DNA of 64,000 bases, from the NCBI GenBank assembly GCA_017464525.1, contig JAFTZM010000008.1, positions 29,623 to 93,622 of the forward strand. Direction: 5' to 3'. The DNA comes from Clostridia bacterium (lineage in GTDB: Bacteria > Bacillota > Clostridia > Oscillospirales > QAKW01). This document shows, piece by piece, positions 2 to 27,655 of this stretch (positions are counted from its first letter, which is position 1; every line of letters begins with the position of its first letter). The position numbers and the translations under genes are program-made. The notes below the pieces were generated by a model, which had not been told where the DNA came from, searched no databases, and worked only from the letters and a program-made list of their open reading frames with translations.

Positions 2-1507
2 ATTGCTTATAACATCAACAAAACCGGCGTTACCATGAAGTGGGAGATCACCGCTGAGGGTGAGTTGGCTGTGGATACCGATAATGCCGGTCTGCCTGTA
101 GCTGTTACCTTCTCTGCCATTGATGAGGAGGCTACCACCATCGATGTGCAGCCCACCACGCTGTATACCAACGCCAACGGCACCCTGATCGGCCTCACCG
201 CCGATCTGCTGAACGCTGCGATCTGGCCTGAGGAAGAGACCCTCACCACCAAGGTGTTCACCGAGGATACCGCTATCGAGGGTACTCCCAATCCTGCCCA
301 CACCCATGAATGGGGCAACTTCACTCATATCGACGGTACCAATACCCATATGGCTGAATGTACCAAAGGCTGTGGAGCCACCGCTACTCTGGACTGCACC
401 TTTGATTCTGTAAAACATGTAGAGGGCACCTCCGGCGCTGAGAGCAAGCACGTTGCAAGCTGCGAATGCGGTAACAGCAAGGAAGTGTTCTGCTCCGAGA
501 ATGCTGAGACCTGGACCTATGAGAAGGTGGATGCCACCTGCTCTGCCAACGGCTACGAGATCTTCAAGTGCTCCGCCTGCGGCCTGGATGAGCTGGAGGT
601 TCTGACCGCTGAGCATATCCCCGGCGAGTGGACTCATGTGGACGGCACCTTAACCCATGCCATCAGCTGTACTGTTTGCTCTGAGCCCATCGAAGTTGCT
701 GAGTGTACCTATGATGATGCCTGGACTCATGTAGAGGGTACCGATACTCACAGCCGCAGCTGTAATGTTTGCGGTGAGAGCACCGAGACCGAGGCTTGCT
801 CCTTCACTGTTTGGAATGAGACTACCGCTCCTCAGGTAGGCGTTCCCGGTGAGAAGACGGCATATTGCGATGACGCTTGCGGTAACTTCAAGACCGAAGA
901 GATCCCCGCTCTGCCTGAGGCTGCTGCCTTTGCTCTTGAGATGCCCAACCGTGCAAAGCCCGGCGATACCATCGAGGCAACTGTTGCTATTAAGAACAAT
1001 CCCGGTGTGGCCGGCGTGACCTTTGATCTGGTCTATGATAAGGCTGCTCTGAGCCTGGTAGGTGCTGAAAGTGCATACGGCGCCGTAGAATTCTACAACG
1101 AGACCGGCCGTGTGGCCTTCGCCAATGCGGCTAATGTGACTACCGATGAGGTTCTGATCACTCTGACCTTTACGGTTGCAGAGGCGGCAGAAGGTGAGAT
1201 CGCTGTTCAGCTGACTCCCGTGAGCGTTATCGATGAAGTGAATGCACCCATCGATGTACTGGCTGCTACCGGTAAGGTGACGGTTTCCAGCTCCGTTCTG
1301 GGCGATGTTACCGGCGACGGCAGAGTGTCCATCGCTGATGCTGTTCTGATGCTTCGCATCGCTTCCGGCGATACCGAGCTTCCCGAGGGTACTGATCTTG
1401 CCGCAGGCAATATCACCACCGAGGGCGATACCGAAGGCTTGACCATCAACACCAACGATGTTGTGCTCCTGCTCAAGTATCTGAGCGGCTCTGTTACAGA
1501 ACTGTAA
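2..1507 (+). CDS. Giant secreted cohesin-dockerin protein A (5'-truncated): Cys/His-rich spacer, 1 cohesin-like domain, C-terminal dockerin
   Basis: Frame open from window start (IAYNINKTGVTMKW..). Cohesin-like 'KPGDTIEATVAIKNNPGVAGVTFDLVYD'; dockerin 'GDVTGDGRVSIADAVLMLR...NTNDVVLLLKYL'. Paralogous to the C-terminus of the 20255 gene. Confidence 0.85.
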   Translation: MAYNINKTGVTMKWEITAEGELAVDTDNAGLPVAVTFSAIDEEATTIDVQPTTLYTNANGTLIGLTADLLNAAIWPEEETLTTKVFTEDTAIEGTPNPAHTHEWGNFTHIDGTNTHMAECTKGCGATATLDCTFDSVKHVEGTSGAESKHVASCECGNSKEVFCSENAETWTYEKVDATCSANGYEIFKCSACGLDELEVLTAEHIPGEWTHVDGTLTHAISCTVCSEPIEVAECTYDDAWTHVEGTDTHSRSCNVCGESTETEACSFTVWNETTAPQVGVPGEKTAYCDDACGNFKTEEIPALPEAAAFALEMPNRAKPGDTIEATVAIKNNPGVAGVTFDLVYDKAALSLVGAESAYGAVEFYNETGRVAFANAANVTTDEVLITLTFTVAEAAEGEIAVQLTPVSVIDEVNAPIDVLAATGKVTVSSSVLGDVTGDGRVSIADAVLMLRIASGDTELPEGTDLAAGNITTEGDTEGLTINTNDVVLLLKYLSGSVTEL

Positions 1508-1516
1508 AATTTTAAG

Positions 1517-1551
1517 AAAAACTGCGCAAGCTTCGGCTTGCGCAGTTTTTT
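1517..1551 (+). terminator. Rho-independent terminator
   Basis: AAAAACTGCGCAAGC-TTCG-GCTTGCGCAGTTTTTT. Confidence 0.9.
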
Positions 1552-1559
1552 ATTTGATA

Positions 1560-1626
1560 AATGTCACAAAATGTTTAGAAAAAGCAACATAAAATGATGT
1601 AAAATTATAATAAACTATGCTACAAT
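1560..1626 (+). promoter_or_regulatory. Promoter with conserved operator-like motif (copy 1)
   Basis: AATGTCACAAAATGTTT, then GCAACATAAAATGATGT at 1584; extended -10 TGcTACAAT with hexamer at 1621. Confidence 0.75.
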
Positions 1627-1703
1627 TAAACCATAATACTGGGTCAGTCCCCAAGAGAGGGGGAGTTGGCTCTAAAAAATATTTTCTTTAGGAGGAAAAT
1701 AAT

Positions 1704-4700
1704 ATGGTCACAAGAAAGACAAAACTGATGTCCGGTTTTGTTGCTCTGCTGATGCTCGTGTCCATGTTTACCGGATTTGTGATCCCGGTAAGCGCCGCCA
1801 ATGAGGGCGGTATCGTTACGGGCACCGGTCTGCATGACGCAACAGGTTATCCTGACATCACCGCCTATGCCGACGGTACCAAGACCTATTCGATCAAGGA
1901 TCGCGCCGGTATGGACAAATTGGCTGATCTGGTCAATAACGGTAACAAGATGGAAGGCGTTACCATTTATCAGATCGCTGATATCGATATGTTGAACACT
2001 CCTTTTGAGGGTATCGGTCACGGTAACACGACCGCTCCCTTTAACGGAACCTTCGACGGTAACGGTTTTACCATCGATAACCTTTTCTATTACCGTGGTA
2101 GCGAAGGCCAAAGCGACGGTAACGCTTTGTTCCCCACTGCAGTGGGTGCTACCTTCAGAAACATTGGTATTTCCGGCGGTCTGATCGTCGGCGGTAAGTG
2201 GACCGGCTCCATCGTCGGCCGCGGCTCCATGTGTAAGATCATCAACTGCTGGAACGCCGCTACCGTTGTCGGTACTTCCGCTCAGGGTACCGGCGGTCTG
2301 GCCGGCACCAACATCAACGGCAACTCCCTGATCGCCAATAGTTTCAACGTTGGTATGATCTATTGCAATACCGGTAAGGCTTCCGGTATCGTAGGCTGGA
2401 TCAACCAGGCTACGGACTCCGTTATCAACAACTACAATGCCGGTGAAATGGTAACCGGTATTACCAACTGGAACCTCACCACCGCTGAGGGTCATACTTA
2501 TTCCCCCATCGTTTGCCAGGATCTGACCCAGTCCCGCGGTACTGCCAACGCCTATAACTACTACATCCTCGACCGTGGCGGCCAGCAGATGTCTTCTTAT
2601 GAACTGATCCAGAGCGGTGCGACCACCATCCCCGGTACCGAAACCGCTCTGAACGGCACCCACGACGGTGCGATCGGTCTGAACGCTTCCGAGCTGACCG
2701 GTGCTCTGGCTCAGAACCTGAATGCACATTTTGTTGCTGAAGGCCAAGGCGAAACCTACGACGTTACCTTTGAAAACGTAGACGGCGTTGGCTATCCCGT
2801 TCTGACCTACTGGAACGGCAACGACATCGTTGCCCAGCGTTACGCCAAGGACACCACCAACGTCAACGGCGATAAGACCTGGGAAAACGCTTCTCCCTTC
2901 TTTAAGTCCATCGTAGAGGCCCGCAGCGGCGCTCTGCTGGGCGAAGGCGTTGAGCGCCCCGCTACCCTGACCCTCACCAATGCAGACGATCTGTTCCTGC
3001 TGGGTTTGGTGATGCATAATGTTGCTCCCTCCGATTTTGGCTATACCGAGATCAACCTCGCTTGCGATATTGACCTCGCTGCCAAGACTGTCAACCCCGG
3101 CGTTACCTACGGTGTACCCCTCGGTAACCCCGGCGGCAGCTTCAATATTACCTTCGACGGCAAGAACCACGTGATCAAGAACTGGAATTTCTATGCCTTT
3201 AAGTCCGGCGGTCACTGGGCAGGCGGTTTCATCACCGAAATCGCCGGTGCTGTCATCAAGAACTTGGGCCTGCTGGATGCCAAGGGTATCTACGTTTACG
3301 GCTATGGCGCTGCTGATGCAGGCTATCAGTATGCTTCCATGCTGGTAGAGCGTGCCAGCGGTACCGGCAACGTGATCGATAACTGCTTCGTTACCGGTCA
3401 CATCATCTCCCACGACACCAACAACGCCAACAACCACGGCGGTGTCTTCTCCACCACCTGGGGCGATAACATCAAGGTTAGCAACTGCTGGTCCAACGTA
3501 ACCATCGAGACTGCTCCCGATAATATCTGGGGCATCCGTACGCTCGGTAAGCTGCCTGCGGCGCAGGATTACACCGGCGATATGGCCAACAACTACAACT
3601 TCAACACCATTGCTCCCATCATCAATTCCGATAACCAGGCCGGCACCTATGATCTCCTCATTGGTGACAAGGTGGAATACGGCACTGCTGAGGCTGCTTA
3701 CTGGCTCTCTCATGAAGGCGGTATGACTCAGCTCTGGAAGGCTGTGGCCGGCGATATCGTCTGGGCTACCGAGGCTGATGCGGCCCGCCGGGTAACTGTA
3801 AACAGAATGTTGAATGAGTATACCGTTGCAGATACCTCTTATATTTATGCTCATCCCGGCGAAACTGTTACGGTTCCTGTGATGGATAACTGTATTCTGG
3901 ATGAGACCACCATCCCTGCCGGCGGTACTGCCGAAAGCTTTACCATGCCTGCCGAGGATGTTACTCTGAAGTATACCATTCAGGGTGTGGATTATACGGT
4001 TGCCGAGAACATTAAGGCTAAATATGAGGCTTATGATCCCGAGCTCTTCGCCAATGGGGCAGAGCTAGCGGCTCTGATCGAGATGGCAGATGCAGCCATC
4101 GCTCTGCAGGAGCAGGAGCAGGATGCCGCTACCATTCAGCAGGCTAATAACATCATGGCTGTTCTTCTGCAGCAGGACGATAGCCTGACTCTGACCCTGA
4201 AGAATGAATACCCCTACTATCCCAAGGCTGCCGACCGTGAGATCTATGCCGACATTCACGACGGTAAGAACTGGGTGGTTTCCGATTACGACGACTGGGC
4301 TGAGCTGGTTCAGATGGCTAATGTGGAGAAGAACACCTTCGTCGGTGTGACCATCCACCTCGCCAACGATGTGGATATGGGCGGCAAGCAGGTCGATCCC
4401 CTTGCTGTCAATAACAGTTATTCCTTCAAGGGTACGCTGGACGGCCACGGCTATGTCTTTAAGAATGTCAACATCAGCTACGATGTGACTGACGCTGAAA
4501 GATGGGTCGCCCTGATTGGTAGCGGTAATGGTGCTACCGTGAAGAATGTTGGTATCGAGAGCGGTACCATCAAGGTCACCTCCAGCGCCACATCGAAGGA
4601 GATCATGCTGGCCAGTCTGGTCGCCGAAGGCTCGATCTGCCGCGTTTACAACTGCTGGAATGCCGCCACCGTCGATGCCGGCACTGCCTACACCACCGCT

Positions 4701-7700
4701 TCCGGTATCGGCCGCTTCACCGGCAGTACCGATGCCTCCAAGACCAGTGAGCACAGCGTCATCGACGGCTGCTTCAATGTGGGTGATGTGATCACCACCG
4801 GTTACTCCGGCTCTTATGCCGGCGGTATCTCCGGTTATACCCAGGGTACTACCAACGTGTTCAACTCCTTCGCTGCTGCTAAGAACGTTACCGGCAAAAC
4901 TGTCGGTATGGTCCGTTACAATGCCGGCAGTAAGGAGGCCTTCTTCGGCAACTCCTACAGCGCAGGTTACCTCTTTGACGGTCAGAACACCCACGCCGGT
5001 GAGGCAGACTACGAGCTGAACTACGCCGATTATGAAAGCGGTAAGCTGGCCTGGATGCTGAACCAGAACTACATCAGCGGCAAGGGCGGCGAGCGTGTAT
5101 ACTACACCAACGATCCTGTTGCCAAGACGGTTCGTTTCGGTACCGAAGCTACCCAGACCCGCCAGATCACCCTGATCGACGAGAACGGTGAGAATGTTTA
5201 TAACCTCTACGGTGCGCAGGGCTCTACCATCGCTCTGGACTATCCCGCCACCGGGAACCTCGCCTTTGCTCTGGCCAGCGGTACCGGCTATTCCCTGAAC
5301 GGGGATCAGCTGACCATCGGTACCGGTGATGCATTTGTTGTTGCTTTTTACGACGGTGTCTATACCGCCGCTCTGGATGATGCCATTGCATACTTCGCAG
5401 ATTTCGATACCGATGTTTACTCCGTATCCGACGGCAGAACCGTAACTGCTGTCATTGAAGAGGCCGAAGCCAAGCTCGCCGACGGTACCATCACCGCCGA
5501 AGAGGTTGCCGCTTATGCCGCTCTGCTCACCGCAGACGTGAAGCTCAACGGCTCTGTACTTCCCTCTCATATTCAGAACAACAACGTGGGTGCCAAGGGC
5601 TTCCTGTCCCCCAACTACGTTGCTTACCTCGGTGCTAAGGTCGATGTCTACACCATCGAGGATCTGCGGCTGGTTCAGAACTTCTATCAGCAGTACACTG
5701 CCGATATGACTGTTGCCATTAAGGCAGATCTGGCCATGACCGAGGAAAATCAGGTCAACACCCTTTATGTTACGGCCTCCATCGACGGTGAGGGCCACAC
5801 CATCAGCGGTTTGACTATGACCGGTGCTTGGTTCGGTAACGGCCAGACCGGCATGAAGTCACTCAAGAACCTGAACTTTGATAATATTACTTACACTACC
5901 AATGACTGGAATCAAGGCTTCCTCTGGAATCAGGCCGTCTGCACCGACCTCACTATTGAGAATGTGAAAGTCACCAACAGCACCTTTACCAAGAATAACG
6001 GTGCCAACGGCTTTGGCGCTTTGATCGGCCAGATCCCTGCCGGGAAGAAGGTTACTCTCAAGGATATTGAATTTACCGGCAATACCATCAACCGTGATTG
6101 CTCCAACCAGGGCAACAACGGCGGTCTGACCGGCCCTGTGAACGGTGTGATCATTGCCGATGGCATCAAGATCACCGATAACATCTACGCAGGTACCTCT
6201 GCTAAGTGGGGCGACGCTATGTTCTGCGGTGAGCTGGTTTCTGCCGGCAACAGCATCAACAATGTGCTGATCTCCCGCAATAAAGTTACCGGCTCCGCTC
6301 CTAATGGTATCGTCAGCGGTGTTTATAAGAATACTGCCACCGTTACCTTCGGCAACATTGTGATCGCCGATAACGAAGGCACCGACGGTATTCCCGTTCA
6401 GGGCGGCATTGTCTCCGGCGGCACCGCTCCCGTATACACCAATGTTGTGACCGATACCGACGGTACTGTTACCACCGAGGCCATTACCGGCGGCGAAAAG
6501 CTCTACGAGTTGAATAATGCCGGCGTTGAAAAGACTTGGGTTCTCACCGAAGAAGGCATCGACTTCGGTACCGAGGGTCTGCCTGTGAAGGTTGACTTTG
6601 TGACCGACGATGCAGTAATGGCTACTCTCTACACCGATGTAAACGGCAATCTGGTGGCTCTGACCAACGATCTGCTGGATGCTGCTCAGTGGGAGGATGA
6701 AGCCAATCTGCCTACCAAGGTGTTCACCGCTGATAGCGTTGTGACCGGCACCACCGTTCCCGAGCATGAGCATATCTGGAGCGAGCCCACTCATTTGGCT
6801 GGCACCGATACCCATGTTTATGCCTGCACCTGGACCGACGGCGAGTGGGTCTGCACCAGCACCAAGACCGCTGATTGCCTCTTTGCTCCCGTAGCCAGCG
6901 AGTTTGAGGGCGCTCCCGAGGATGCCAAGCACATCGGTCAGTGTATCTGCGAAAACTTCAAGGAGACCAAGTGCTCCGAGGATGAGTACTGGACCTATGA
7001 GAAGGTAGAAGCCGATTGCGAGAACGACGGTTCTATCACCGCTTCCTGCGATTACTGCGGCTACTCCTACTCCGAGATTCTGGTCTCCGAAGGCCATGCC
7101 TACGGCGATAGTTGGATTCATGTAGAAGGTACCGATACTCATAAGCGTGTTTGCGCCAATGGGTGCGGCATTGATGAGACCGCTGATTGCTCCTTCACCG
7201 GCGAGTGGGATGAAACTCCCGCCACCAAGGAGAGCGAAGGCAAGCGTGAAATGGCTTGCGACGCTGCTTGCGGTAATGTGATCTCCGAGACCATTCCTGC
7301 CATTGCTTATATCAATGTGACCGCTGAGCCCACCGATATCGGTGAGACCATGGAGGTTCTCATCGATCTGCATAACAATCGCGGCGTTTCCGGTGCTCAG
7401 ATCGCTGTTACCTACGATGCAAGAGCAATGACTCCCTCCGGCTACAGCCTGAAGGTTGCAGACGCCATCTTCAGCCAGGGTCCTGCTACTGAGCCTGATG
7501 AGCAGGGTCTCTCCACCGTCATCTATACCTTCGTATTCCCTGTAGAGATGACCGAGGACGGCACCATCATGTCCATCTTCTTCGATGTGGCAGAGGATGC
7601 TGAGGCCGGCCAATACACCATGATCGTAGAAGCTCTGGTTTCCGATTATGAGATGGTCGAGTACGATTTCGAGGCATATGTTGGTACTGTTGAAGTTGTT

Positions 7701-7928: not shown

Positions 7929-7938
7929 TCAATTGAAT

Positions 7939-7973
7939 AAAAACAGCGCGAGTTTGACTCGCGCTGTTTTTTT
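7939..7973 (+). terminator. Rho-independent terminator
   Basis: AAAAACAGCGCGAGT-TTG-ACTCGCGCTGTTTTTTT. Confidence 0.9.
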
Positions 7974-8023
7974 CGTCAAGTGATGGATGTATAAATACAT
8001 AAATTCACATTTATTTTTATCAA

Positions 8024-8090
8024 AATGTCACAAATCGTTTGAAAAAAGCAACATAAAATGATGTAAATTTCCTATTGTATATGATACAAT
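8024..8090 (+). promoter_or_regulatory. Promoter with conserved operator-like motif (copy 2)
   Basis: AATGTCACAAATCGTTT, GCAACATAAAATGATGT at 8048, TGaTACAAT with hexamer at 8085. Confidence 0.75.
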
Positions 8091-8150
8091 AGAATCATCA
8101 TAATGGGTCGGTCTCTATAATGCCGGCTCAAAAAATTAGGAGGAATCATT

Positions 8151-15440: not shown

Positions 15441-15450
15441 ACTATAATTT

Positions 15451-15484: not shown

Positions 15485-15489
15485 GATGA

Positions 15490-15556
15490 AATGTCACAAA
15501 ATGTTTGAAAAAAGCAACATAAAATAGTGTAAACCCTTTTCATAATATGTTACAAT
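15490..15556 (+). promoter_or_regulatory. Promoter with conserved operator-like motif (copy 3)
   Basis: AATGTCACAAAATGTTT, GCAACATAAAATAGTGT at 15514, TGtTACAAT with hexamer at 15551. Confidence 0.75.
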
Positions 15557-15608
15557 ATACTCATAAAACTGGGGCATTGCCCTAATATAATTTTAGGAGG
15601 AAACTTCT

Positions 15609-18600: not shown

Positions 18601-20060
18601 CTCTGCAGCTGGCTGGCCTTGCCAAGGGCGACGTGGATGTTCTGCCTGTAGTCGGCAATCCTGTTGTTGCGGATGGCGTGGCTACCGTTGAGATCGCTCT
18701 GATTGCTCTGGACGGTAATATGCCCACCGATATCACCACCGACGGTGTGATTGGCTACCTGCAGTTCAAGATCCTTGATGCCGCCAAGCCCGGCAATTAC
18801 GATGTGACCGTCGAGTCCATCGAGATCGTTAATAAGGCCGAGAAAGTAATCGACGTGAAGACTGCCGCCGGCACCGTTACCGTTGAGTGTAACTTCCAGC
18901 TGGTTGCTCCTTCCAATGATACCGCTCCCGAAGAGGCTGCTCATTATTATGCTTGCACCTGTGGTGAGGTTCAGACTTCCGAGAAGTGCTCCGAGACCGA
19001 GGGCTGGCAGTATGAAAAGATCGATTCTACCTGCACCGAGGAAGGCTCTTTGACCGCCTCCTGCGCAGTCTGCGGATATAACCACAGCTCTGTGATCTCC
19101 AAAAAGTCTCATGCGACGAATGTGGTTGAAGCTAAGGAACCCAGCTGCGAAGAGGCTGGTAATAACGAGTATTACCTCTGCGATACCTGCGGTAAGGCCT
19201 TTAAGGATGCCGAAGGCACCCAGGAGACTACTGTGGAGGCCGAGACCCTGCCTGCCACCGACCATGCTTATCCCAGAGGCTGGACCCATGTTGAGGGCAC
19301 CGATACCCACACCAAGGTCTGCGCCAACGGCTGCGGCAAGGATCTGATCGAGAATTGCGGCGGCGAATGGACTGTTGAGGGCGAAGAAAAGGTCAAGACC
19401 TGCCCCGATTGCGGCAATGTTGCAAGAGCACCTCTCGCTCCTCCCACTACCCTGGAGGTCGAGGCTGAGACCGCCACCCCCGGCAAGACCGTTGCGCTGA
19501 AGCTGAGCGTGAAGGATAACGCCGGTCTCTCCGGTGCGAAGATCACCGTGACCTATGATGCCAGCGTGCTGGGCGTTGCTGATATCCAGCTGCCCGAAGG
19601 CGCTCTGGTTGATATCGGCCCTGAGACCCATCTGGGCGCCGGCACCGAGGTTGCTACCAACATCGTATTTGTTCTGCCTGCCGAGATGACTGAGGATGGC
19701 GTATTTGCCACCCTGATCCTGAATGTGGACACCACCGCCGAGATCGGCGAGCACGCCATCAAGATCGATGTGGAGGCCGCCGGCTACGATCTGGCGGAGT
19801 ACACCATGACCTATACCGGCACCGTGACCGTTGAGGAGCCCGCTTACCTGCCCGGCGATATCAACGGTGATGGCAAGGTCTCCATCTCCGATGCTGTTAT
19901 GATGATGCGTGTAGCCGCCGGCGATGCCGAGGTGATCGCAGTTGCCGACCTGGTGGCCGGTAATGTGACCACCGAGGGCGATACTGCCGAGATGGTGATC
20001 AATACCAACGATATCATCCTGGTTCTCCAGTACCTGAACGGTACCGTGAAGGAACTGTAA
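15609..20060 (+). CDS. Giant secreted protein D (1483 aa): signal peptide, 2 beta-helix modules, 2 cohesin-like domains separated by a Cys/His-rich spacer, dockerin
   Basis: RBS AGGAGG; signal MVTRKTRL..VPMSA; cohesins 'GDTLDVSVSIKNNPGFVG' and 'GKTVALKLSVKDNAGLSG'; dockerin 'GDINGDGKVSISDAVMMMR'. Confidence 0.9.
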   Translation: MVTRKTRLTSALLSVLMVLTMLAGFVVPMSAESSYPSVTTVTAEVTGTDYSIANASDWMYVFNNLAWFNKDGVTLHLSGNVDFKGAATFTGFVNPMFSFDGHGYTISNWGTEAAPVTTPGMFAPDYGYASSVDFIKNVTLENCYAKASRNSCIALIYSAGHSNGGANLPETFTMENVHVKDSSFTAAGGQVHGILLARYANSTESTVVNITNCSIVGTTFDVTAADEHNGLVVGKPRGNNTADTTGVYNITDLKLVRNTIIGANQGTGLIFGTVEDSKTTVNLKNAIAIDNTMNVKEGVGVGVVGASVEGKLNIQDSIFQNSGAVGTNIGVHLLGNGYGSTPQLTGLSNVYLSNDITLVEGKTTDLAAVTDSAKLLEAAYKANQGGYTNKWTITNGLVDADGEGVLPVKATIKCDSGSDEVLYGVQYGTLTLNYGGTPENIAGYSIVAPANGATVSGSTLTLGSSDIVITASLMGLNYADLDEAVAAFEGKNTAYYASSTYEQSLADLLAEIAAKREGETFADQDEVSSYIVKLKTYALDVYPNLPLASEVDQYADANDYLVNSLGELEYVAKNPTKYAAADTIHLGAEITVTAGSAANRLGNFSAKIDGHGYAIKGVTFDGNNVNLSSWIDTYTGSYIGNLVVDGWTLTNMGWKGGLLIGYATGASSLTVENITVKNCAMDKASNYGSFTIADCDTASLTLKNINIIDNTFTRGTGTGNSGLLLGRYNKGAGTLDVDDIYISGNTVNGVVIKNGIYSSGAGLVIGEVTAAKTTVNNVITVNTTIGEGHEVNGLLFGRVKGASPVVDNVVIEAGAWAALPVARLQKTDNVHDANNAATVTVTNLYTDATNLTTGDLTAANTPVAAAEIHNGAVAFALNAAGVEKTYVITEDGIAFGAEGKPVQVILVAGEQTIATLYTDVNGKLIGLTDEMINAANWGVDLTTAVYNENTTVTGVLVPEFVVGDVAGKNGDTLDVSVSIKNNPGFVGAEIKVSYDATALQLAGLAKGDVDVLPVVGNPVVADGVATVEIALIALDGNMPTDITTDGVIGYLQFKILDAAKPGNYDVTVESIEIVNKAEKVIDVKTAAGTVTVECNFQLVAPSNDTAPEEAAHYYACTCGEVQTSEKCSETEGWQYEKIDSTCTEEGSLTASCAVCGYNHSSVISKKSHATNVVEAKEPSCEEAGNNEYYLCDTCGKAFKDAEGTQETTVEAETLPATDHAYPRGWTHVEGTDTHTKVCANGCGKDLIENCGGEWTVEGEEKVKTCPDCGNVARAPLAPPTTLEVEAETATPGKTVALKLSVKDNAGLSGAKITVTYDASVLGVADIQLPEGALVDIGPETHLGAGTEVATNIVFVLPAEMTEDGVFATLILNVDTTAEIGEHAIKIDVEAAGYDLAEYTMTYTGTVTVEEPAYLPGDINGDGKVSISDAVMMMRVAAGDAEVIAVADLVAGNVTTEGDTAEMVINTNDIILVLQYLNGTVKEL

Positions 20061-20071
20061 AATCTCAAGTG

Positions 20072-20104
20072 AAAACAGCGCAAGCTTTGGCTTGCGCTGT
20101 TTTT
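20072..20104 (+). terminator. Rho-independent terminator
   Basis: AAAACAGCGCAAGC-TTTG-GCTTGCGCTGTTTTT. Confidence 0.9.
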
Positions 20105-20112
20105 GTTTTATA

Positions 20113-20179
20113 AATGTCACAAAATGTTTGAAAAAAACCACATAAAATAATGTAAAATAATAACATTATATGCTACAAT
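20113..20179 (+). promoter_or_regulatory. Promoter with conserved operator-like motif (copy 4)
   Basis: AATGTCACAAAATGTTT, variant ACCACATAAAATAATGT at 20137, TGcTACAAT with hexamer at 20174; 5'UTR nearly identical to that of gene B. Confidence 0.75.
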
Positions 20180-20254
20180 TATACCATAATACTGGGTCAG
20201 TCCCCAAGAGAGGGGTCTTGGCCCGAAAAATATTTTCTTTAGGAGGAAAATAGT

Positions 20255-23200
20255 ATGGTCACAAGAAAGACAAGACTGATGTCCGGTTTTGTTGCCATCA
20301 TGATGATCATCTCGCTGTTTACCGCATTTGTGATCCCGGTAAGCGCCGAGAGCGGTACTGTAGCAGGTACCGGCCTTTATGATGCTACAGCCTTGCCGGA
20401 TATCGCAGATGGCTATACCGGCGCAACGGCCTATCAGGTCAAGGATGCTGCCGGTCTTCATGCCTTGGCTGATATTGTAAACGAGGATAGATTCAATCTG
20501 TCCGGGGTTACGATCTATCAGACTGCCGATATCGATCTGGGCTGGGAGCCCTTTGCCGGTATCGGTTATAACCATGGCTCCGGCACCGCAAGGCAGGGCT
20601 TTAGCGGTACCTATGACGGTAACGGCTTTATTATCGAGGGCCTTTATATTGCTCGTACCGGCGATAGTGTTGGCTCTTCCGGTCTCTTTGGTACACTTAA
20701 CAGCGGTGCTACCGTTAAGAACGTTGGTATCGCCAGCGGTTTTGTGTATGGCCGTGTTTGGGTCGGCGCTATTGTGGGCCGTACCAACGGAAATAATAAG
20801 ATCTTGAACTGCTGGAGCGCTGCTACTGTTGTGGCTACCGATGCCATGAGCGCCGGCGGTATCGTGGGCTCCCTGGCCGGCGGCGGCGTAGTTGCTGCTA
20901 ATTGCTACAATTTGGGCCTGCTGATCTGCTCCACCGGTAAGATCGCCGGTATCTCCGGCTGGACCAATAACGCCGATGCTGTACTTGCAGATAACTACAA
21001 TGCCGGTCAGATTGTTGGCCATTTCAACGGTCTTGCTGCCGGTGAACCCAACTGTATGTATGACTATTCCCCCATCGTCATTCACGATTATTCCCAGGAA
21101 CGTGCTACCGCATCCGAGAATAACTACTATGTGAAGGGCCGCGGTAAGATCAGCTCTGTGAAGGAGTCCGGTTTGACCGAGGTTCCCCGCGATGATAAGG
21201 TTGTTGCCCTTGTTGCCAGCGATGCTGCCACCGGTGTGGAGGCATCTGCCCTGACCGACGGCACTCTGGCTGCTGCCCTGAACGGTGACGGTCTGGATTA
21301 TGCCCCCGATGGTTACACCATGGCCTATGAGAACGTGGAAGGCGTGGGCTATCCTGTGCTGACCTATCGCAAGGACGGTGCCATCGTGGCTCAGCGCACC
21401 GCCACCGCTACCGATCTGGTGAACGGCGACGATACCGCTTTGGCTAACAGCACCGTATGGCAGGCTTTCAAGTCCTGGGCAGACGGCAAAGGCCCCTCTT
21501 CCATCTTTGAGATGGAGATCACCCTGACCAGCGCTGCCGATCTGTGGCTGGTTGCTATGGTCAGCGGTACCAATACCTTTAAGGGTACCATCAATCTGGG
21601 CGCCGATATTGATATGGCCGATCTGGCTGTTAACGGCGTAAAGTATCATATTCCCATCGCTGCTGCCGGCGGGAACTTCAACGGCACCTTCGATGGCCAG
21701 AACCACATCATTAAGAACTGGACTGTTTATGCCCCCATGTTCGGTGAGTCCCCCCGCGGCGGCCTGATTTCCCATGTAAACGGCGCTACTGTGAAGAACG
21801 TGGGTATGGTCGATTCCTACACCAGATATGAGCGTCTGACCCACGAGGTCAACTACGGCTACGTGTATCCCGCTCTGCTGGTTGAGCGTGAGCCCACCAG
21901 TGAGCAGACCTACACTACCCTGACCATGGACAACTGCTTTGCAGAGGGTACCGTATACTGCGAAAATGTCAATAACGTCAATAATGTCGGCGGTGTCTTC
22001 AGTACCGCATGGGGCGATGACGTTGCCATCACCAACTGCTGGTCCGATGTAAACTACATCGATGCTGTTAGTGCTAAGGCCGGTAAGGGCCGTGCTATGG
22101 GTAAACTGAATACCACCAGCATCGCTGTATCCGGCATCTATCAGGTGGACGACGGCACCTTCATTCCCGGTGCCGATAACCTTTCCGACGATCTTTCTAC
22201 CCACCTCACCGACGTGAGCTGCAAGGATGCTTCCTTGGCTGCCGCTCTGAACGAGAAGATGGGCGAGAAGTGGATCTACAACGGTGAGTACACCACCTTC
22301 GCCGGCAACACCGCTCCTGCTGCTACCAAGGTGGAGCAGGCTGCCAAGGCTGCCGCTAAGCTGGCTGAGCTGGACTTCACCTACTTTGCTGAGGCCGATG
22401 CCCTGCAGGCTGCTTACGATGCGCTGGTTACCGCTACGGATGAAGCTGCTGCTACCACCGCTCTGGCTGCCTACGCTGCTCTGACCTATACCATCAAGGA
22501 TGGCGTATATGTTCCCATTACCAAGGCAGAGATCTACCTGCCCTATATGGATACCATCAATTGGGGCATCTCCACCTTTGAAGATTGGGCCGCTTTTGCG
22601 CATCTTTCTGTCAATTCTTATTTTGTAGGGCAGAACTTTCACCTGACCAATGATATCGACATGGGCAACCGCGCTGTCGATTCTGTCAACCCCCAGCACT
22701 ATTATCTGAATGATAAGGGTGAGGCCAAGAGCGTCGGTACCACCTTCCAGGGTGTCTTCGACGGTCACGGCTATGTTCTGAAGAACTACCGCAATAACAT
22801 CAACCTGACCTACTACTACAAGGCCGGTGTATTTGGTGACATCTCCAAGGGTACCATCAAGAACTTTGGTGTTGCCAGCGGCTTGGTCAAGTGCTACAAC
22901 AGCCAGAATAAGATCGAGCCTCTGATCGGCGGTCTCGCCGGCGTTTCCACCAATAATGCTAAGGTCAGCTACTGCTGGTTCGGCGCTGATATTGATGCTA
23001 CTTCTTTCACCAGCACCAGCCCCGGCATCACCATTTCCGGTATCGCCCGTACCACCAACGACGGTAACGTGATCGATAACTGCTATGCGACCGGTAATAT
23101 TTCCGGTAATACCGGCGCTGCCTCCTATGCCGGCGGTCTTTCCGGTTATTCTCAGGCTTCCGGTGAGTTCTATAACTGCTTCTACGGCGGCGGTACTCTT

Positions 23201-26200
23201 TCTGGCAAGACACCCGGTTTGCTGCGCTACAACGGTGATGCTAAGGAAGCTTATTTTGCAAACACTTACATCTGCGGTCCCTATAGCTTTGACCCACAGA
23301 AAACGCATGCCAATGAAGCCAACTATGAGCTGGGCGCTGATGCCTACTCCACCGGTGAGCTGGCTTACCGCCTGAATACCGGTTATGTGGAGGGCAAGGG
23401 TACCAAGGGCTATTACACCCTGGCGGACAGCAAGACCGTATTCGGTACCGAAGCCAACCAGACCCGCAAGCTGACCATTGAAAAGAAGCTGGAGGACGGT
23501 TCTCTGGTAGAGTCCACCGCCGAGTATGTCAATGCCGGCACCGTTTATACCATCAATGCTCCTGCCGGTTATGAGCCGGTGGCCGAGGGCCTCAATCAGT
23601 ACGATGCCGAGGCCGGCACCTTTGTGATGCCCACCACCGATGCCACTCTGGTTCTGCAGTTCTCCGGCGAGGCCGATGCGTTGATGCAGAATATTGTGGA
23701 TTCCTATGCCCCGTTTATCGAGGGCTATGAGGAGGATTTCGACCTCTTCAATCAGGAAGAAAAGATGCGTGCATCCTATAATGCCGCCCTCTCCGTGCTG
23801 GAAGGCACCGCCGAGGATGTTCCCGCTGCAGTTGCTACTGCTACCGAGAATTTTGTTGCAGTTGCAAACCTCACCCTCAAGAAAGCTTATCCCTACTATC
23901 CTTCCCTGAGAAATATTGAGGTCTATAAGGATCTGAATACCGCCAATGCGGAAGGCCGCATTAACTGGGGTATCCATTCTGTTGAGGATTGGAAATACCT
24001 TATCGAGGATAGGTTCGATCCCGCTTCTGCCAAGTATCTGGGCAGTGATCCTAACACCAAGATCAACGGTAAGGACGGAAATTATACCTACATCCTGAAT
24101 GTGACCCATGATCTGGACTTTAACAACGAAGAAATGTCTCCGCTTTACTGCGACACCAACTGGACCCTGGACGGCCACGGCAATTCCTTCAAGAATGTTA
24201 ATATCGTGGAAACCATCGCTGATCCTGAAAGTGCAACCTATGTAGGTCTGCTGGGTGGCCAGCCTTGGAACGTGATTATCCAGAATCTAGGTATGGAAGG
24301 CGGTACTGTGAAGGTTACCGGTACCAATGCTAACGCCAAGTCCGTTTATGTATCTTCCTTCTATGGCTACAACGGCGGCTATTCTGCGCGCCTCTTCAAC
24401 TCCTGGAGTACCGCAGATGTAATTCTGGATGTGGCCGGCGGTTCCGACCTCATCGCATCCGGTTTGATCAACTTCACCCGTCCCGTTGCAGTTACTAACT
24501 GCTATTTCGGCGGTACTGTTACCTCCAACGGTAAGTCTGCTGTGATCTGGTGCACCGACGGATCCAGCGATGAGATCTATAAGAATGTATGGAGCTCCGC
24601 AGAAGGTCTGCAGTTCTCCAATATTGCAAACGGCGCTTCCTCCACCGCAGGAGTCGTTTCCGCCGATGCTGTTGAGTCCGGCGAGATCGCTTACCTGCTG
24701 AACAATAACTATACTGCCTGCAACTATGATAGCTACTATCCCGCAGGCCACCCCTACTTCGATGTAGTTGACGGTGTTACCGTCCGTGTCGATGCCGATC
24801 CCGAACTGAGAAAGATCACCATGAAGCTGGCCGGCTACGAGGATAAGACCCTCTACGGCAGCGACGGTGAGACTGTTACCCTGAACTATGTGGATGGCGC
24901 TTCCTACGCCATTGCCTCCGGCAACGGTACTCTGGAGGGTGATCAGCTGACCATCGACGGCGAGGCTATCATCACCGTAACTGCCGAGAACATCCTCATT
25001 CTGGATGAGTTGAAGGCAGCCGTTGCCCTCTACGACGGCAAGAACACTGCCTACTACACCAATGATAACGGCGATTCCCTCGCCGAGATCCTGGCCACCG
25101 CCAATGGCATCATCGCCGGAGATGTGCAGGCCGATCAGGCTATGGTAAATGCCTATGCTGAGATGGTGAAGAGTTTCTATCTGGCCGATGCATATCCTGC
25201 TCTGCCCAAGATGTCCGAATATGCCACTTATCCCGGATTGAGCGGATATCTGGTCTACGACCTGGCTGATCTGGAGGCTGTTGTGAAGAGCATGGGCAAC
25301 CTCACCGCCGAGCAGACCATCTACCTGATGGCTGATATCGAGGTGACCGAAGGCTCTGTTGCCAATAGCATGAAGGGTCTGAAGGCCAGCATCGACGGTA
25401 ATGGCTATGCCATCAAGAATGTTCACGTTGTGGGCGTTGAAGACGACTGGGGCGGCAGCGCCTGGTTGGGCAACTACACCGGCTTGAGCATCAAGAACTT
25501 GGTAATCGATGGCTGGACCACCGAGACGATGGGCTGGCAGGCTGCTCTGCTGGTAAGCACCGCTTCGGCCGATACCACTTTTGAGAATATTACCATTAAG
25601 AATTCTACCGTTACCGGCGGTACTGTTCGGAACGGTCTGGGTGCTCTGATTGGTATTGTTCGTACTACTACGATCACTGTTAAGAACATTCGCATCGAAA
25701 ACACGACCTTGCTTCGCAATTCCGGAAACTTCGGCTTTGTTCTGGGTCGTAACGAAAACGGTGTAGCCAACATTGATGGCGTATATCTGGTCAACAATAC
25801 CATCGGTGCGGTGGATGAGAATGTTAACCAAGGCGCCAGCGGCCGCGGTATTCTGGTCGGTGAGTCTACCGGATCTACCGCTTTGAAGAACATCGCTGTA
25901 TTCAACACCTCCTTTAAGGATGATGTTACTGTTCTTGGCGTTCTTGCCGGTTGCCTGAAGGTAGGCGACGACGGCGCAAGTGCCGGCAACACCGCCGCTT
26001 CCTTGTCCATGAGTAACATTATGGTTGAGGATTGTGGCGATGCGCCCCTGATCTATAAGGCTAATGCCAATGGCACCTGCACCTATAGCAATGTTTATAC
26101 CGATGCTGAAAAGATCATCGGAAAGAATGATGAGGTTGCAAACCTCACTGCTCTGACTGCAGATCAGTATACAGAAGCTGCGTTCACCATGAACCTCACC

Positions 26201-27655
26201 AGCGAGATCGTGAAGTGGGAAGTTCCTGCTGAAGGTTATCCCGAATTTGATACCGACGGTAAGGGTCTGCCTCTGGCTATCTCCTTCTCTGCAACCGATA
26301 GCGATCCTACTACTACTGATGTAAATGAAACCCTCTTCACCAACACCGAGGGTAAGGTGATCGGTATCACCAACGAGCTGAAGGAAGCCGCCATCTGGGA
26401 GAACGCCGATGAGTGGTCCACCATGACCTTCACCGAGAATACCACCATTTCCGGTACTCCCATTACTTACCATGTTTGCGTCTGGGGCAACCACAGCCAC
26501 ATCGACGGAACCGACACCCACTATGCTGAGTGTATCTGGACCGACGGCACAATTGAATGTCCCAAGACTGCAACTCAGGATTGCGACTTTACCACTTCTG
26601 CCACTACTGTGGATCCCGACGCTGAGCCCGAGGCTGCTGCTCACAGCGCAACCTGCGCCTGCGGCAATACCTCCGGTGAGACCCTCTGCTCTGCTAATGC
26701 GGATACTTGGGTGGTGACCACCACCGAGCCTACCTGCGATAAGGAAGGCTCCACCATCTACAATTGTACCGTTTGCGGCTACATTCATGTAGACACCACC
26801 GATTCCAAGGGTCACACTTATCCCGAGACCTGGACCAAGGATGAGGTCGCTGAGGGCGAGACCCAGACTCATAGCCACGCTTGCATCAACGAGTGCGGCA
26901 CCACCGAGTCCGAGCCTTGCACCTACACCAATGGCAATTGGGAGGTCACCGAGGCTACCGCCACCTCCACCGGCGAGAAGAAGATGCCCTGCGATAAGAA
27001 CTGCGGCTCTTACCTGGTAGAGATCATTCCCGCTCTGGGCAATGTTACCATCGAGGCCGAGACCGGCATCGTGGGCGAGACCATGGAGGTCGAGGTTGTG
27101 CTGAATAATAACTCCGGTCTGTCCGGCGCTGATATCACCATCACCTACGATTCCGACGCTCTCGTTCTGGAGACCGTTACCGCCGGTGATTGGGAACTGC
27201 CTCTCCTGAGCAATGGTCCTGTTACCGAGCCCGATGAGGACGGTATGGTTTCCGTTATCGCCAACTTCGCCATTTATGGCACCATCGAAGAGGACGGCAC
27301 CATCATCAAGCTCACCTTCAAGGTGAAGGAAGATGCTGTTCCCGGTGATTATGCCTTTGGCGTGGATGTTTTCGCCTCCGATTTCGACGGCAACGAGTTC
27401 AGCTTCATTCCTTATGAAGGTACTGTGACCGTTTCCAGCATCGTTCGCGGCGATATCAACGGCGACCGCTATGTCACCATTGCCGATGCAGTTCTGATGC
27501 TCCGTGTTGCCAGCGGCGAGACCAACCTCCCCGAGGGTCTGAATCTCGAAGCTGCTGATATCATCACCGAAACCAATACGGATGAATTCACCGTCAACAC
27601 CGACGATGTTATTCAGGTTCTGAAGTATCTGAACGGTGAGATCACGGTTCTTTGA
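20255..27655 (+). CDS. Giant secreted protein E (2466 aa): signal peptide, 5 GLUG-like beta-helix modules, Cys/His-rich spacer, 1 cohesin-like domain, dockerin
   Basis: RBS AGGAGG; five 'DGxG/N' modules; cohesin 'VGETMEVEVVLNNNSGLSG'; dockerin 'GDINGDRYVTIADAVLMLR'. Confidence 0.9.
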   Translation: MVTRKTRLMSGFVAIMMIISLFTAFVIPVSAESGTVAGTGLYDATALPDIADGYTGATAYQVKDAAGLHALADIVNEDRFNLSGVTIYQTADIDLGWEPFAGIGYNHGSGTARQGFSGTYDGNGFIIEGLYIARTGDSVGSSGLFGTLNSGATVKNVGIASGFVYGRVWVGAIVGRTNGNNKILNCWSAATVVATDAMSAGGIVGSLAGGGVVAANCYNLGLLICSTGKIAGISGWTNNADAVLADNYNAGQIVGHFNGLAAGEPNCMYDYSPIVIHDYSQERATASENNYYVKGRGKISSVKESGLTEVPRDDKVVALVASDAATGVEASALTDGTLAAALNGDGLDYAPDGYTMAYENVEGVGYPVLTYRKDGAIVAQRTATATDLVNGDDTALANSTVWQAFKSWADGKGPSSIFEMEITLTSAADLWLVAMVSGTNTFKGTINLGADIDMADLAVNGVKYHIPIAAAGGNFNGTFDGQNHIIKNWTVYAPMFGESPRGGLISHVNGATVKNVGMVDSYTRYERLTHEVNYGYVYPALLVEREPTSEQTYTTLTMDNCFAEGTVYCENVNNVNNVGGVFSTAWGDDVAITNCWSDVNYIDAVSAKAGKGRAMGKLNTTSIAVSGIYQVDDGTFIPGADNLSDDLSTHLTDVSCKDASLAAALNEKMGEKWIYNGEYTTFAGNTAPAATKVEQAAKAAAKLAELDFTYFAEADALQAAYDALVTATDEAAATTALAAYAALTYTIKDGVYVPITKAEIYLPYMDTINWGISTFEDWAAFAHLSVNSYFVGQNFHLTNDIDMGNRAVDSVNPQHYYLNDKGEAKSVGTTFQGVFDGHGYVLKNYRNNINLTYYYKAGVFGDISKGTIKNFGVASGLVKCYNSQNKIEPLIGGLAGVSTNNAKVSYCWFGADIDATSFTSTSPGITISGIARTTNDGNVIDNCYATGNISGNTGAASYAGGLSGYSQASGEFYNCFYGGGTLSGKTPGLLRYNGDAKEAYFANTYICGPYSFDPQKTHANEANYELGADAYSTGELAYRLNTGYVEGKGTKGYYTLADSKTVFGTEANQTRKLTIEKKLEDGSLVESTAEYVNAGTVYTINAPAGYEPVAEGLNQYDAEAGTFVMPTTDATLVLQFSGEADALMQNIVDSYAPFIEGYEEDFDLFNQEEKMRASYNAALSVLEGTAEDVPAAVATATENFVAVANLTLKKAYPYYPSLRNIEVYKDLNTANAEGRINWGIHSVEDWKYLIEDRFDPASAKYLGSDPNTKINGKDGNYTYILNVTHDLDFNNEEMSPLYCDTNWTLDGHGNSFKNVNIVETIADPESATYVGLLGGQPWNVIIQNLGMEGGTVKVTGTNANAKSVYVSSFYGYNGGYSARLFNSWSTADVILDVAGGSDLIASGLINFTRPVAVTNCYFGGTVTSNGKSAVIWCTDGSSDEIYKNVWSSAEGLQFSNIANGASSTAGVVSADAVESGEIAYLLNNNYTACNYDSYYPAGHPYFDVVDGVTVRVDADPELRKITMKLAGYEDKTLYGSDGETVTLNYVDGASYAIASGNGTLEGDQLTIDGEAIITVTAENILILDELKAAVALYDGKNTAYYTNDNGDSLAEILATANGIIAGDVQADQAMVNAYAEMVKSFYLADAYPALPKMSEYATYPGLSGYLVYDLADLEAVVKSMGNLTAEQTIYLMADIEVTEGSVANSMKGLKASIDGNGYAIKNVHVVGVEDDWGGSAWLGNYTGLSIKNLVIDGWTTETMGWQAALLVSTASADTTFENITIKNSTVTGGTVRNGLGALIGIVRTTTITVKNIRIENTTLLRNSGNFGFVLGRNENGVANIDGVYLVNNTIGAVDENVNQGASGRGILVGESTGSTALKNIAVFNTSFKDDVTVLGVLAGCLKVGDDGASAGNTAASLSMSNIMVEDCGDAPLIYKANANGTCTYSNVYTDAEKIIGKNDEVANLTALTADQYTEAAFTMNLTSEIVKWEVPAEGYPEFDTDGKGLPLAISFSATDSDPTTTDVNETLFTNTEGKVIGITNELKEAAIWENADEWSTMTFTENTTISGTPITYHVCVWGNHSHIDGTDTHYAECIWTDGTIECPKTATQDCDFTTSATTVDPDAEPEAAAHSATCACGNTSGETLCSANADTWVVTTTEPTCDKEGSTIYNCTVCGYIHVDTTDSKGHTYPETWTKDEVAEGETQTHSHACINECGTTESEPCTYTNGNWEVTEATATSTGEKKMPCDKNCGSYLVEIIPALGNVTIEAETGIVGETMEVEVVLNNNSGLSGADITITYDSDALVLETVTAGDWELPLLSNGPVTEPDEDGMVSVIANFAIYGTIEEDGTIIKLTFKVKEDAVPGDYAFGVDVFASDFDGNEFSFIPYEGTVTVSSIVRGDINGDRYVTIADAVLMLRVASGETNLPEGLNLEAADIITETNTDEFTVNTDDVIQVLKYLNGEITVL

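What the first reader, a model, noticed from the sequence alone, without database searches (positions are those of the whole stretch)
2..27655. Every giant subunit is both cargo and scaffold (cohesin plus dockerin): potential self-polymerising, branched network
Seen: A, B and E each have 1 cohesin plus a dockerin; C and D each have 2 cohesins plus a dockerin. In classical cellulosomes, enzymes carry dockerins and scaffoldins carry cohesins. Inference: if these cohesins bind the shared dockerin class, one-cohesin proteins extend chains and two-cohesin proteins act as branch points, giving an open-ended polymer rooted on the SLH anchor.
Basis: partly seen in the sequence, partly recalled or inferred. 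Interest (0 to 1): 0.82.

Follow-up and report, generated by a model that had tools for sequence, protein, structure and literature searches.

The report
Giant surface proteins carrying cohesin plus dockerin
An uncultured gut bacterium encodes a row of giant secreted proteins that each carry both halves of the cellulosome "plug and socket" pair next to a cell-wall anchor, so they can be both passenger and scaffold, but whether they link to one another into a polymer is still untested.

Summary
A (5'-cut in the window, 2133 aa in the genome), B and E each carry one cohesin plus a C-terminal dockerin. C and D carry two cohesins plus a dockerin.

The unit is larger than flagged. It has eight genes, A-H, and also holds two small Coh-Doc proteins (F, G) and an SLH anchor (H) with a divergent N-terminal cohesin.

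Genome-wide, 11 of 13 cohesin proteins also carry a dockerin. The two exceptions are the two anchors.

The bulk of each giant matches no Pfam family and is modelled as a GLUG/IgA1-protease-type beta-helix.

The giants' dockerins form a private class. It has a 5-residue insert in the second loop, and its two helices stand in the reverse order of the 23 aligned majority-class dockerins, some of which sit on GH95, GH92 and GH97 enzymes.

Self-polymerisation is possible but unshown. Many other dockerins compete for the same cohesins. The idea itself is published for R. bromii Amy4, and Coh-Doc tandems are widespread.

Verdict: a new variant of a known kind, of moderate interest.

The parts
2..1507 (+). 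Gene A, C-terminal 501 aa of a 2133-aa giant subunit (rest lies upstream of the window)
917..1294 (+). A cohesin
   Evidence: Pfam E 1.7e-12; own HMM
1295..1504 (+). A dockerin, class X
1508..1703 (+). Terminator hairpin plus conserved promoter-region box upstream of B (same cassette at 7929-8150, 15441-15608, 20061-20254)
   Evidence: alignment; genome search
1704..7928 (+). Gene B, 2074-aa giant subunit: N-terminal hydrophobic leader, beta-helix modules, Cys-rich mini-domains, cohesin, dockerin
7284..7706 (+). B cohesin (group II)
   Evidence: six-frame Pfam 25.9 bits; own HMM
7716..7925 (+). B dockerin, class X
8151..15440 (+). Gene C, 2429-aa giant subunit
13245..13676 (+). C cohesin 1 (group I)
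13869..14309 (+). C cohesin 2 (group I)
14310..15227 (+). C: tandem Cys-rich ~42-aa repeats between cohesin 2 and dockerin
   Evidence: translation; Pfam Rubredoxin/RYYR-CCHC partial hits
15228..15437 (+). C dockerin, class X
15609..20060 (+). Gene D, 1483-aa subunit
18468..18893 (+). D cohesin 1 (group I)
19437..19841 (+). D cohesin 2 (group II)
19848..20057 (+). D dockerin, class X
20255..27655 (+). Gene E, 2466-aa giant subunit
27017..27442 (+). E cohesin (group II)
27443..27652 (+). E dockerin, class X
27831..28538 (+). Gene F, 235-aa Coh-Doc protein with a symmetric dockerin (cohesin 27936-28340, dockerin 28341-28526)
   Evidence: Pfam Cohesin 3.5e-11, Dockerin_1 1.9e-5; similar small protein conserved in relatives
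28592..30430 (+). Gene G, 612-aa adaptor: anchor-type cohesin-like domain 28691-29161, Cys-rich region, cohesin 29801-30214, class X-like dockerin 30224-30427
30684..32651 (+). Gene H, 655-aa anchor: divergent cohesin 30765-31235, Cys-rich region, SLH repeats (matches at 32259-32366 and 32457-32591)
   Evidence: Pfam SLH 7.7e-16; model and fold search

Best explanation
This is an eight-gene, scaffoldin-type cluster (A-H; about 37.5 kb in the genome) of an uncultured gut Clostridia bacterium. It builds a cellulosome-like but non-cellulolytic assembly on the cell surface.

The five giants are paralogs, and three more lie elsewhere in the genome. Each consists of GLUG/IgA1-protease-type parallel beta-helix modules, Cys-rich mini-domains, one or two cohesins and a private dockerin class (X). 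They are hybrid subunits: cargo through the dockerin, scaffold through the cohesins.

Most likely wiring (inferred, not shown) is hierarchical, as in scaffoldin clusters.
- The conserved class X dockerin plugs the giants into the conserved anchor-type cohesins of H (SLH, cell wall) and of the adaptor G.
- The giants' own diverged cohesins then capture further dockerin proteins. These would be chiefly the majority-class (S) proteins, which include glycan-degrading enzymes. Other giants might be captured too, because classes X and S carry the same two helix types in opposite order.

Shown: the modules, their classes, the cohesin-like fold of the anchor domain, the conserved gene order and the genome-wide census.

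Inferred: who binds whom.
For: Modules and counts.

Cluster limits and full-length A.

Eight giant paralogs, all with cohesin and dockerin.

Anchor:
- SLH in H.
- The model of H 28-190 (pLDDT 74.7) finds cohesins first in the PDB (5lxv_A, E 3.2e-6, TM 0.58).
- The gene order giants, then a ~240-aa Coh-Doc protein, then a protein with an N-terminal cohesin-like domain recurs in G006 and G007. In G015 the same small protein is followed by three such proteins, at a contig start. The 860-, 647- and 750-aa proteins of these three loci end in a region alignable by eye to H's SLH end; Pfam was not run on them.

Census:
- 16 cohesin modules in 13 proteins, and 44 ORFs with a dockerin.
- 11 of 13 cohesin proteins also carry a dockerin.
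- The two without one are H (SLH) and a 332-aa protein with a C-terminal membrane helix.

Class X is limited to 7 proteins: A-E, G and one unlinked giant.

Conservation: the dockerins of A, C, D and E are 56-67% identical to B's, and G_n/H_n are 84% identical. The giants' cohesins are 24-47% identical.

Of the 13 class S proteins scanned with Pfam, 8 showed a family besides the dockerin: GH95+GDSL, GH92, GH97, GH63-like, GDSL, phosphodiesterase, Metallophos and Peptidase_M26_N. The other 5 showed only the dockerin.

Precedent from passages of PMC5934362: the R. flavefaciens ScaA dockerin has an insert in its second Ca loop and binds only the cohesins of the next scaffoldin. Groups 3 and 6 dockerins share a specificity in reversed binding mode.
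Against: No binding was measured or validly predicted here, so every edge of the wiring is inference.

The anchor-type domain is a cohesin only by a medium-confidence model built from a 3-row alignment. It has almost no relatives: 3 proteins in the near-length search, and 7 of 29 other genus genomes with weak matches.

Dockerin identity is inflated by Ca-loop residues. Class S dockerins average 49% pairwise identity against 53% for class X, so the conservation argument is soft.

The segment swap could equally mean that X and S share receptors, which favours the rival polymer reading.

The function of the beta-helix bulk is unknown.
Confidence: 0.5

Rival explanations
1. First reader's model. 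The giants' own cohesins bind the shared class X dockerin, so one-cohesin subunits extend chains and two-cohesin subunits (C, D) branch them. The result is an open-ended mesh rooted on H.
For: Every one of the 7 class X proteins also carries at least one cohesin.

If the anchor-type cohesin binds class X, G (anchor-type cohesin plus class X-like dockerin) would itself be chain-forming.

Classes X and S share helix types in swapped order. R. flavefaciens groups 3 and 6 show that such dockerins can share a cohesin (passages).

Published precedent: the Amy4 cohesin binds its own dockerin, the protein aggregates in SEC, and a dockerin-less mutant does not (passages).

The cohesin runs into the dockerin with only 1-4 residues between the HMM envelopes in A, B, D, E and G. 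By established cohesin geometry this makes binding in cis unlikely; this is an inference.
Against: No specificity data exist.

The giants' cohesins fall into several groups at 24-47% identity, while the dockerin class is uniform.

33 dockerin-only ORFs compete for the same 16 cohesins.

In relatives, 14 of 28 loci with such a dockerin have no cohesin within the ~500 aa held upstream, and 5 of 6 giants checked in G008 and G018 lack one. The dockerin therefore does not need a partner cohesin in the same protein.
Confidence: 0.25
2. Closed rather than open assembly. The adjacent cohesin and dockerin bind within one chain, or reciprocally in a head-to-tail dimer. This caps the modules or makes defined dimers, not polymers.
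For: The tandem with almost no linker is widespread. In 101 of the 150 best representative proteins a dockerin starts within 30 aa after a cohesin. That suggests the pair is a structural unit.
Against: The linker is too short for the canonical face to be reached in cis (inference from known cohesin structure, not modelled here).

C and the unlinked giant I separate cohesin and dockerin by about 300-400 aa of Cys-rich repeats, so tight pairing is not required.
Confidence: 0.08
3. The cohesin-like and dockerin-like modules are structural spacers or bind non-protein ligands, with no Coh-Doc pairing.
For: The second Ca loop of class X is atypical. Pfam's dockerin cut-off is missed by A, B, E and G.
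Against: The first Ca loop is canonical by eye. The modules are kept across 24 of 24 genus genomes searched. Their co-location with an SLH cohesin protein is conserved.
Confidence: 0.05

Closest known systems
Ruminococcus bromii Amy4 (amylosome)
   Same: One polypeptide carries cargo, a cohesin and a C-terminal dockerin. It is described as both scaffoldin and enzyme, its cohesin binds its own dockerin, and it homo-oligomerises (PMC4611034 and PMC12663171, passages).
   Different: Amy4 is a single GH13 amylase. Here there are eight giant paralogs with no recognised catalytic domain, two of them with two cohesins, plus a private dockerin class and an SLH rather than a sortase anchor. Self-binding is not shown here.
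Primary/adaptor scaffoldins with a divergent dockerin (R. flavefaciens ScaA, ScaB, ScaC; C. thermocellum CipA with SLH anchors, the latter recalled from memory)
   Same: Cohesins plus a dockerin of separate specificity that plugs into the next scaffoldin. The ScaA dockerin has an insert in its second Ca loop (PMC5934362 passages). The genes sit in a cluster with the anchor. F resembles the small ScaC adaptor.
   Different: Classical scaffoldins are mostly tandem cohesins without large cargo. Here each carries about 1000-2250 aa ahead of the first cohesin, largely beta-helix modules, and only 1-2 cohesins. None of the enzymes seen is a cellulase.
Clostridium perfringens Coh/Doc glycosidases and the Limousia mucinolysome
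   Same: A non-cellulolytic gut Coh-Doc system with host-glycan-type enzymes. C. perfringens GH31 carries both modules. Limousia cSca1 and cSca2 cohesins are AF3-predicted to bind their own dockerins (PMC12997984, sections 20 and 22).
   Different: Different lineage. Limousia uses multi-cohesin scaffoldins and an LPxTG anchor. It has no giant beta-helix Coh-Doc family.
GLUG / IgA1-protease N-terminal beta-helix (PDB 3n6z, putative IgA1 protease of Bacteroides ovatus)
   Same: Best structural match of the giants' N-terminal module (E 1.8e-6, TMt 0.56). Atlas neighbours carry Glug and Peptidase_M26_N.
   Different: No M26 peptidase domain was found. Pfam's Glug model does not hit. Similarity is at the level of fold.

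Membership tests
Cohesin (PF00963) | Sequence match over the curated cut-off | tested here: met
   All 7 modules in A-E, plus F and G, pass in the six-frame search. B fails the whole-protein scan. The profile also hits solved cohesins (3kcp_A, E 5.7e-10).
Cohesin (PF00963) | Cohesin fold for the divergent anchor-type domain of H and G | tested here: met
   AF2 model with pLDDT 74.7 and pTM 0.70. Cohesins head the 26 PDB matches at E <= 0.001, though a few non-cohesin chains are among them. Medium confidence; Pfam does not hit.
Cohesin (PF00963) | Binds a dockerin | not testable with these tools
   The only complex job gave no answer (see Tried and rejected).
Dockerin type I (PF00404) | Sequence match over the curated cut-off | tested here: inconclusive
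   C, D and F pass in the six-frame search. G, E and A are below the cut-off and B is not listed. The tandem profile hits solved dockerins at E 0.003-0.008.
Dockerin type I (PF00404) | Two Ca-binding loop-helix repeats | tested here: inconclusive
   The first repeat is canonical by eye. The second has a 5-residue insert and altered ligand positions. The helix order is swapped relative to class S in 7 of 7.
SLH cell-wall anchor | SLH repeats | tested here: met
   H: PF00395, E 7.7e-16, 2 stretches. 9 SLH matches in 6 frames genome-wide.
Cellulosome in the strict sense | Dockerin-borne plant-cell-wall cellulases on a multi-cohesin scaffoldin | tested here: not met
   No protein has more than 2 typical cohesins. 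In the 13 class S proteins scanned no cellulase family appeared; the enzymes seen were GH95, GH92, GH97, GH63-like, esterases and phosphoesterases. 31 dockerin ORFs were not scanned.
Self-polymerising Coh+Doc protein (Amy4 type) | Its own cohesin binds its own dockerin class | not testable with these tools
   Only the architecture is met.
Adaptor/primary scaffoldin | Cohesin(s) plus a dockerin of a class distinct from the enzyme dockerins, encoded beside an anchoring scaffoldin | tested here: met
   Class X against class S. Cluster with H.

The most novel reading that the evidence does not exclude
The genus builds a protein mesh on its S-layer. Giant beta-helix subunits cross-link through cohesins that accept both the enzyme dockerins and, in flipped orientation, the segment-swapped dockerins of other giants. 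Two-cohesin subunits act as branch points. This would be an extracellular matrix polymerised by Coh-Doc pairs that also holds glycan-degrading enzymes.
Probability: 0.2. Interest if true: 0.75.

Novelty: new variant of a known kind. Interest (0 to 1): 0.45.

Why it matters
Cohesin-dockerin systems outside plant-fibre degradation are only now being charted, as amylosomes and mucinolysomes.

This system shows an extreme form. Almost every cohesin in the genome sits on a protein that is itself dockable. The carriers are giant beta-helix proteins of unknown function. They bear a dockerin class whose two helices are in the reverse order of the enzyme dockerins.

If the wiring were mapped, it would show how valency and orientation are encoded in such networks. 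It would also show whether gut Clostridia build polymeric surface layers from these modules.

The modules could also serve as orthogonal parts for designer scaffolds.

Tried and rejected
1. Complex prediction. The chains were the H anchor-type domain, the E cohesin and B's dockerin as partner.
- Runs scored 0.39, 0.63 and 0.65.
- With the partner replaced, the controls scored 0.00 and 0.02.
- With chain 1 (H domain) replaced, the control scored 0.63.
- The tool's verdict was 'no answer (no support, and no evidence against)'.
- It notes that with three chains the score may come from the chain that was kept.
- I use it neither for nor against any binding claim. A three-chain design was my choice, against the tool's advice of two chains, and it used the only job.

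2. The search for related loci with the tandem alignment in genome contigs found no relative. The genome search was used instead.

3. Looking for the anchor-type domain elsewhere.
- 3 proteins came up in the near-length search of the large protein collection. The longer and shorter length classes were not searched.
- There were weak hits in 7 of 29 other genus genomes.
- Co-occurrence with class X-like dockerins across the genus was therefore not informative: 4 of those 7 also have one.

4. The giants' N-terminal bulk gave no hit over a curated cut-off in Pfam, none in NCBIfam, and no PDB sequence match for B.

5. The look-up of sequencing runs. No RNA holder is listed, and this is no evidence on expression. 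The holders are gut or faeces metagenomes from 2 studies, some of them possibly the source.

6. I considered a covariation test between adjacent cohesin and dockerin columns over the ~100 tandems. I did not run it. There are too few sequences, and a positive result could not separate packing in cis from recognition in trans.

8. Literature. Searches listed no paper on this protein family, judged from titles and abstract starts only. Supplements were not consulted and may hold relevant binding tables for Amy4 and Limousia.

Full report
WHAT IS THERE

The first 32.7 kb of the window are a one-strand row of eight genes.
- A: 2-1507, cut at the 5' end
- B: 1704-7928
- C: 8151-15440
- D: 15609-20060
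- E: 20255-27655
- F: 27831-28538
- G: 28592-30430
- H: 30684-32651

The window is contig 40, 29623-93622, of a 2.62-Mb, 98.7%-complete genome. In that genome A is a complete 2133-aa protein that starts at C40:24728. The genes upstream look like ordinary ones, with no long surface-protein ORF, though they were not scanned against families. The cluster is therefore A-H.

All eight proteins start with a hydrophobic N-terminus that looks like a signal peptide. This is by eye; no predictor was run.

CHECK OF THE OBSERVATION

Pfam finds cohesins in A (1), C (2), D (2), E (1), F (1) and G (1), but none in B or H. B's cohesin reaches the Pfam cut-off in the six-frame search of the genome (25.9 bits). 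It is also clear with an HMM built from the window's own cohesins.

The dockerins are weak by Pfam. A, B and E are not listed in whole-protein scans, and C and D fall under the cut-off (six-frame results). All five giants nevertheless end in one well-aligned 70-residue module. A profile of the tandem also hits solved dockerins as well as solved cohesins.

1. F and G are further Coh-Doc proteins.

2. G and H share a 157-residue N-terminal domain that is 84% identical between them. A model of H 28-190 (pLDDT 74.7) finds cohesins first in the PDB (5lxv_A, E 3.2e-6). The SLH protein therefore carries a divergent cohesin. This domain is rare. Three proteins were found in the near-length search of 5.8 billion: H, G and one G-like protein.

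3. Three more giant paralogs lie elsewhere in the genome, named here I, J and K. Each has a cohesin and a dockerin.

4. A census with four own HMMs found 46 ORFs with a module.
- There are 16 cohesin modules in 13 proteins, and 44 ORFs with a dockerin.
- 11 of the 13 cohesin proteins also carry a dockerin.
- The two that do not are the two anchors: H (SLH) and a 332-aa protein with a C-terminal membrane helix.

The rule 'scaffold equals cargo' thus holds for the whole genome, not only for A-E.

DOCKERIN CLASSES

The dockerins of A-E, G and I form class X, which is found in no other ORF. F and J share a symmetric type.

Most other dockerins belong to class S, which sits at the very C-terminus. 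Thirteen class S proteins were scanned with Pfam.
- Eight showed a family besides the dockerin: GH95+GDSL, GH92, GH97, GH63/MGH1-like, GDSL, phosphodiesterase, Metallophos and Peptidase_M26_N.
- Five showed only the dockerin.

Class X has a 5-residue insert in its second Ca loop. It also carries the two helix types of class S in the opposite order.
- The first helix of X matches the second helix of S (mean BLOSUM62 32.9) better than the first (20.3).
- The second helix of X matches the first of S (31.8) better than the second (20.2).
- This holds in 7 of 7 class X dockerins, though only marginally in G.

Position 11 of the 'b' helix is Ala or Ser in X and Tyr or Phe in 16 of the 23 class S dockerins aligned. 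I recall that positions 10 and 11 are specificity determinants in type I dockerins. That is memory, not a call.

THE CARGO

The stretch ahead of the first cohesin, about 950-2250 aa, matches no Pfam family over its cut-off. It matches no NCBIfam family, and B's has no PDB sequence match.

The protein atlas places B 30-700 beside clusters in which 10-25% of members carry Glug, and beside clusters with Peptidase_M26_N.

A model of B 32-700 (pLDDT 77, pTM 0.83) best matches 3n6z, a putative IgA1 protease of Bacteroides ovatus (E 1.8e-6, TMt 0.56). Parallel beta-helix enzymes follow at low TM. No catalytic domain was recognised, so binding or adhesion is a guess.

RELATIVES

The tandem profile hits 24 of 24 same-genus genomes and 7 of 16 genomes from other families of the order.

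The gene order giants, then a ~240-aa Coh-Doc protein, then a protein with an N-terminal cohesin-like domain recurs in G006 and G007. In G015 the same small protein is followed by three such proteins, at a contig start. The 860-, 647- and 750-aa proteins of these three loci end in a region that resembles H's SLH end by eye. Pfam was not run on them.

The cohesin is optional in relatives.
- 5 of 6 giants checked in G008 and G018 have the dockerin but no cohesin.
- Of 28 relatives' loci around class X-like dockerins, 14 show a cohesin within the ~500 aa held upstream and 14 do not.

By SecY, the nearest named records (69-88% identity) are MAGs labelled Eubacteriales or Clostridia bacterium. Some titles name goat rectum or rabbit. 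The next records, at 55% identity or less, are Acutalibacteraceae and Oscillospiraceae MAGs.

HOW COMMON IS THE ARCHITECTURE?

Against 1.84 billion representative proteins the tandem profile finds 16,533 proteins at E <= 1e-3 and 250 at E <= 1e-30.

Of the best 150, 119 carry both module types. In 101 of them a dockerin starts within 30 aa after a cohesin. Only 7 of those 101 have a single cohesin, and several of these are this genome's own giants or appear to be genus relatives. A cohesin running straight into a dockerin is therefore ordinary. What is unusual is its attachment to giant beta-helix proteins and its near-universality within one genome.

HOW IT LIKELY WORKS

The published cases give two templates.

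1. Hierarchy. In R. flavefaciens the scaffoldin ScaA has a unique dockerin with an insert in the second Ca loop, and it binds only ScaB cohesins 5-9 (PMC5934362 passages).

Class X, with its insert and its restriction to cohesin-bearing proteins, resembles this. The best-conserved cohesins in the genome are the anchor-type pair (84%). The giants' own cohesins have split into groups at 24-47% identity.

With 33 dockerin-only ORFs needing sockets, the giants' cohesins are the obvious supply.

2. Self-assembly. The Amy4 cohesin of R. bromii binds its own dockerin. Amy4 aggregates in SEC, and a dockerin-less mutant does not (PMC4611034 and PMC12663171 passages).

The same R. flavefaciens paper states that groups 3 and 6 dockerins share a specificity in reversed binding mode. 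The helix swap between X and S could mean the same here, and then the giants would also link to each other.

I rate the hierarchy at about 0.5, the open polymer at about 0.25, closed or cis pairing at about 0.08, and no pairing at about 0.05. The rest is unassigned.

The cis option is disfavoured by the 1-4-residue gap between cohesin and dockerin envelopes in A, B, D, E and G. This is an inference from known cohesin geometry and was not modelled.

NOVELTY AND VERDICT

The principle that a subunit can be both scaffold and cargo and may polymerise is in print. Examples:
- Amy4.
- The Archaeoglobus Coh+Doc protein, cited in PMC4611034.
- C. perfringens GH31 and Limousia cSca1/cSca2 (PMC12997984, sections 20 and 22).

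New here:
- the carrier family
- the genome-wide rule
- the segment-swapped private dockerin class
- the orphan-like anchor cohesin

Five literature searches listed nothing on this family, judged from titles and abstract starts.

It is a new variant of a known kind.

Noticed in passing
window 1508-1703, 7929-8150, 15441-15608, 20061-20254 (and upstream of A in the genome): Each giant gene A-E is a separate cassette. A near-identical GC-rich terminator hairpin is followed by a conserved ~45-nt AT-rich box, a TACAAT-like -10 element and a conserved leader. The box occurs 5 times in the genome, only before A-E, at up to 9 mismatches of 45. This suggests co-regulation and duplication of whole cassettes.
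   Followed up: partly
window 14310-15227 (C) and the Cys-rich stretches of A, B, D, E, G, H: Arrays of small Cys/His-rich units, such as tandem ~42-aa repeats in C, lie between the beta-helix, cohesin and dockerin modules. Pfam gives only partial Rubredoxin and RYYR-CCHC hits. They are probably Zn-binding spacer modules. The unlinked giant I has a longer array.
   Followed up: partly
window 50914-63458: Eight consecutive + strand ORFs (356-500 aa) all carry an Exo_endo_phos (endonuclease/exonuclease/phosphatase) domain, forming a tandem paralog array.
   Followed up: no
G000 contigs 12 and 8 (loci L012, L013): There is a second, separate anchor type: a 332-aa cohesin protein with a C-terminal membrane helix. 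Its 203-aa relative (57% identical cohesin) ends in a class S-like dockerin remnant.
   Followed up: partly
window 44344-45639: SecY. A housekeeping gene lies about 12 kb downstream of the surface-protein cluster.
   Followed up: partly
G000 contig 6 (C6:46538-46810): A 90-aa ORF near a contig end repeats exactly the dockerin of the GH95 protein on the same contig. It is either an assembly duplicate or a recent duplication.
   Followed up: no
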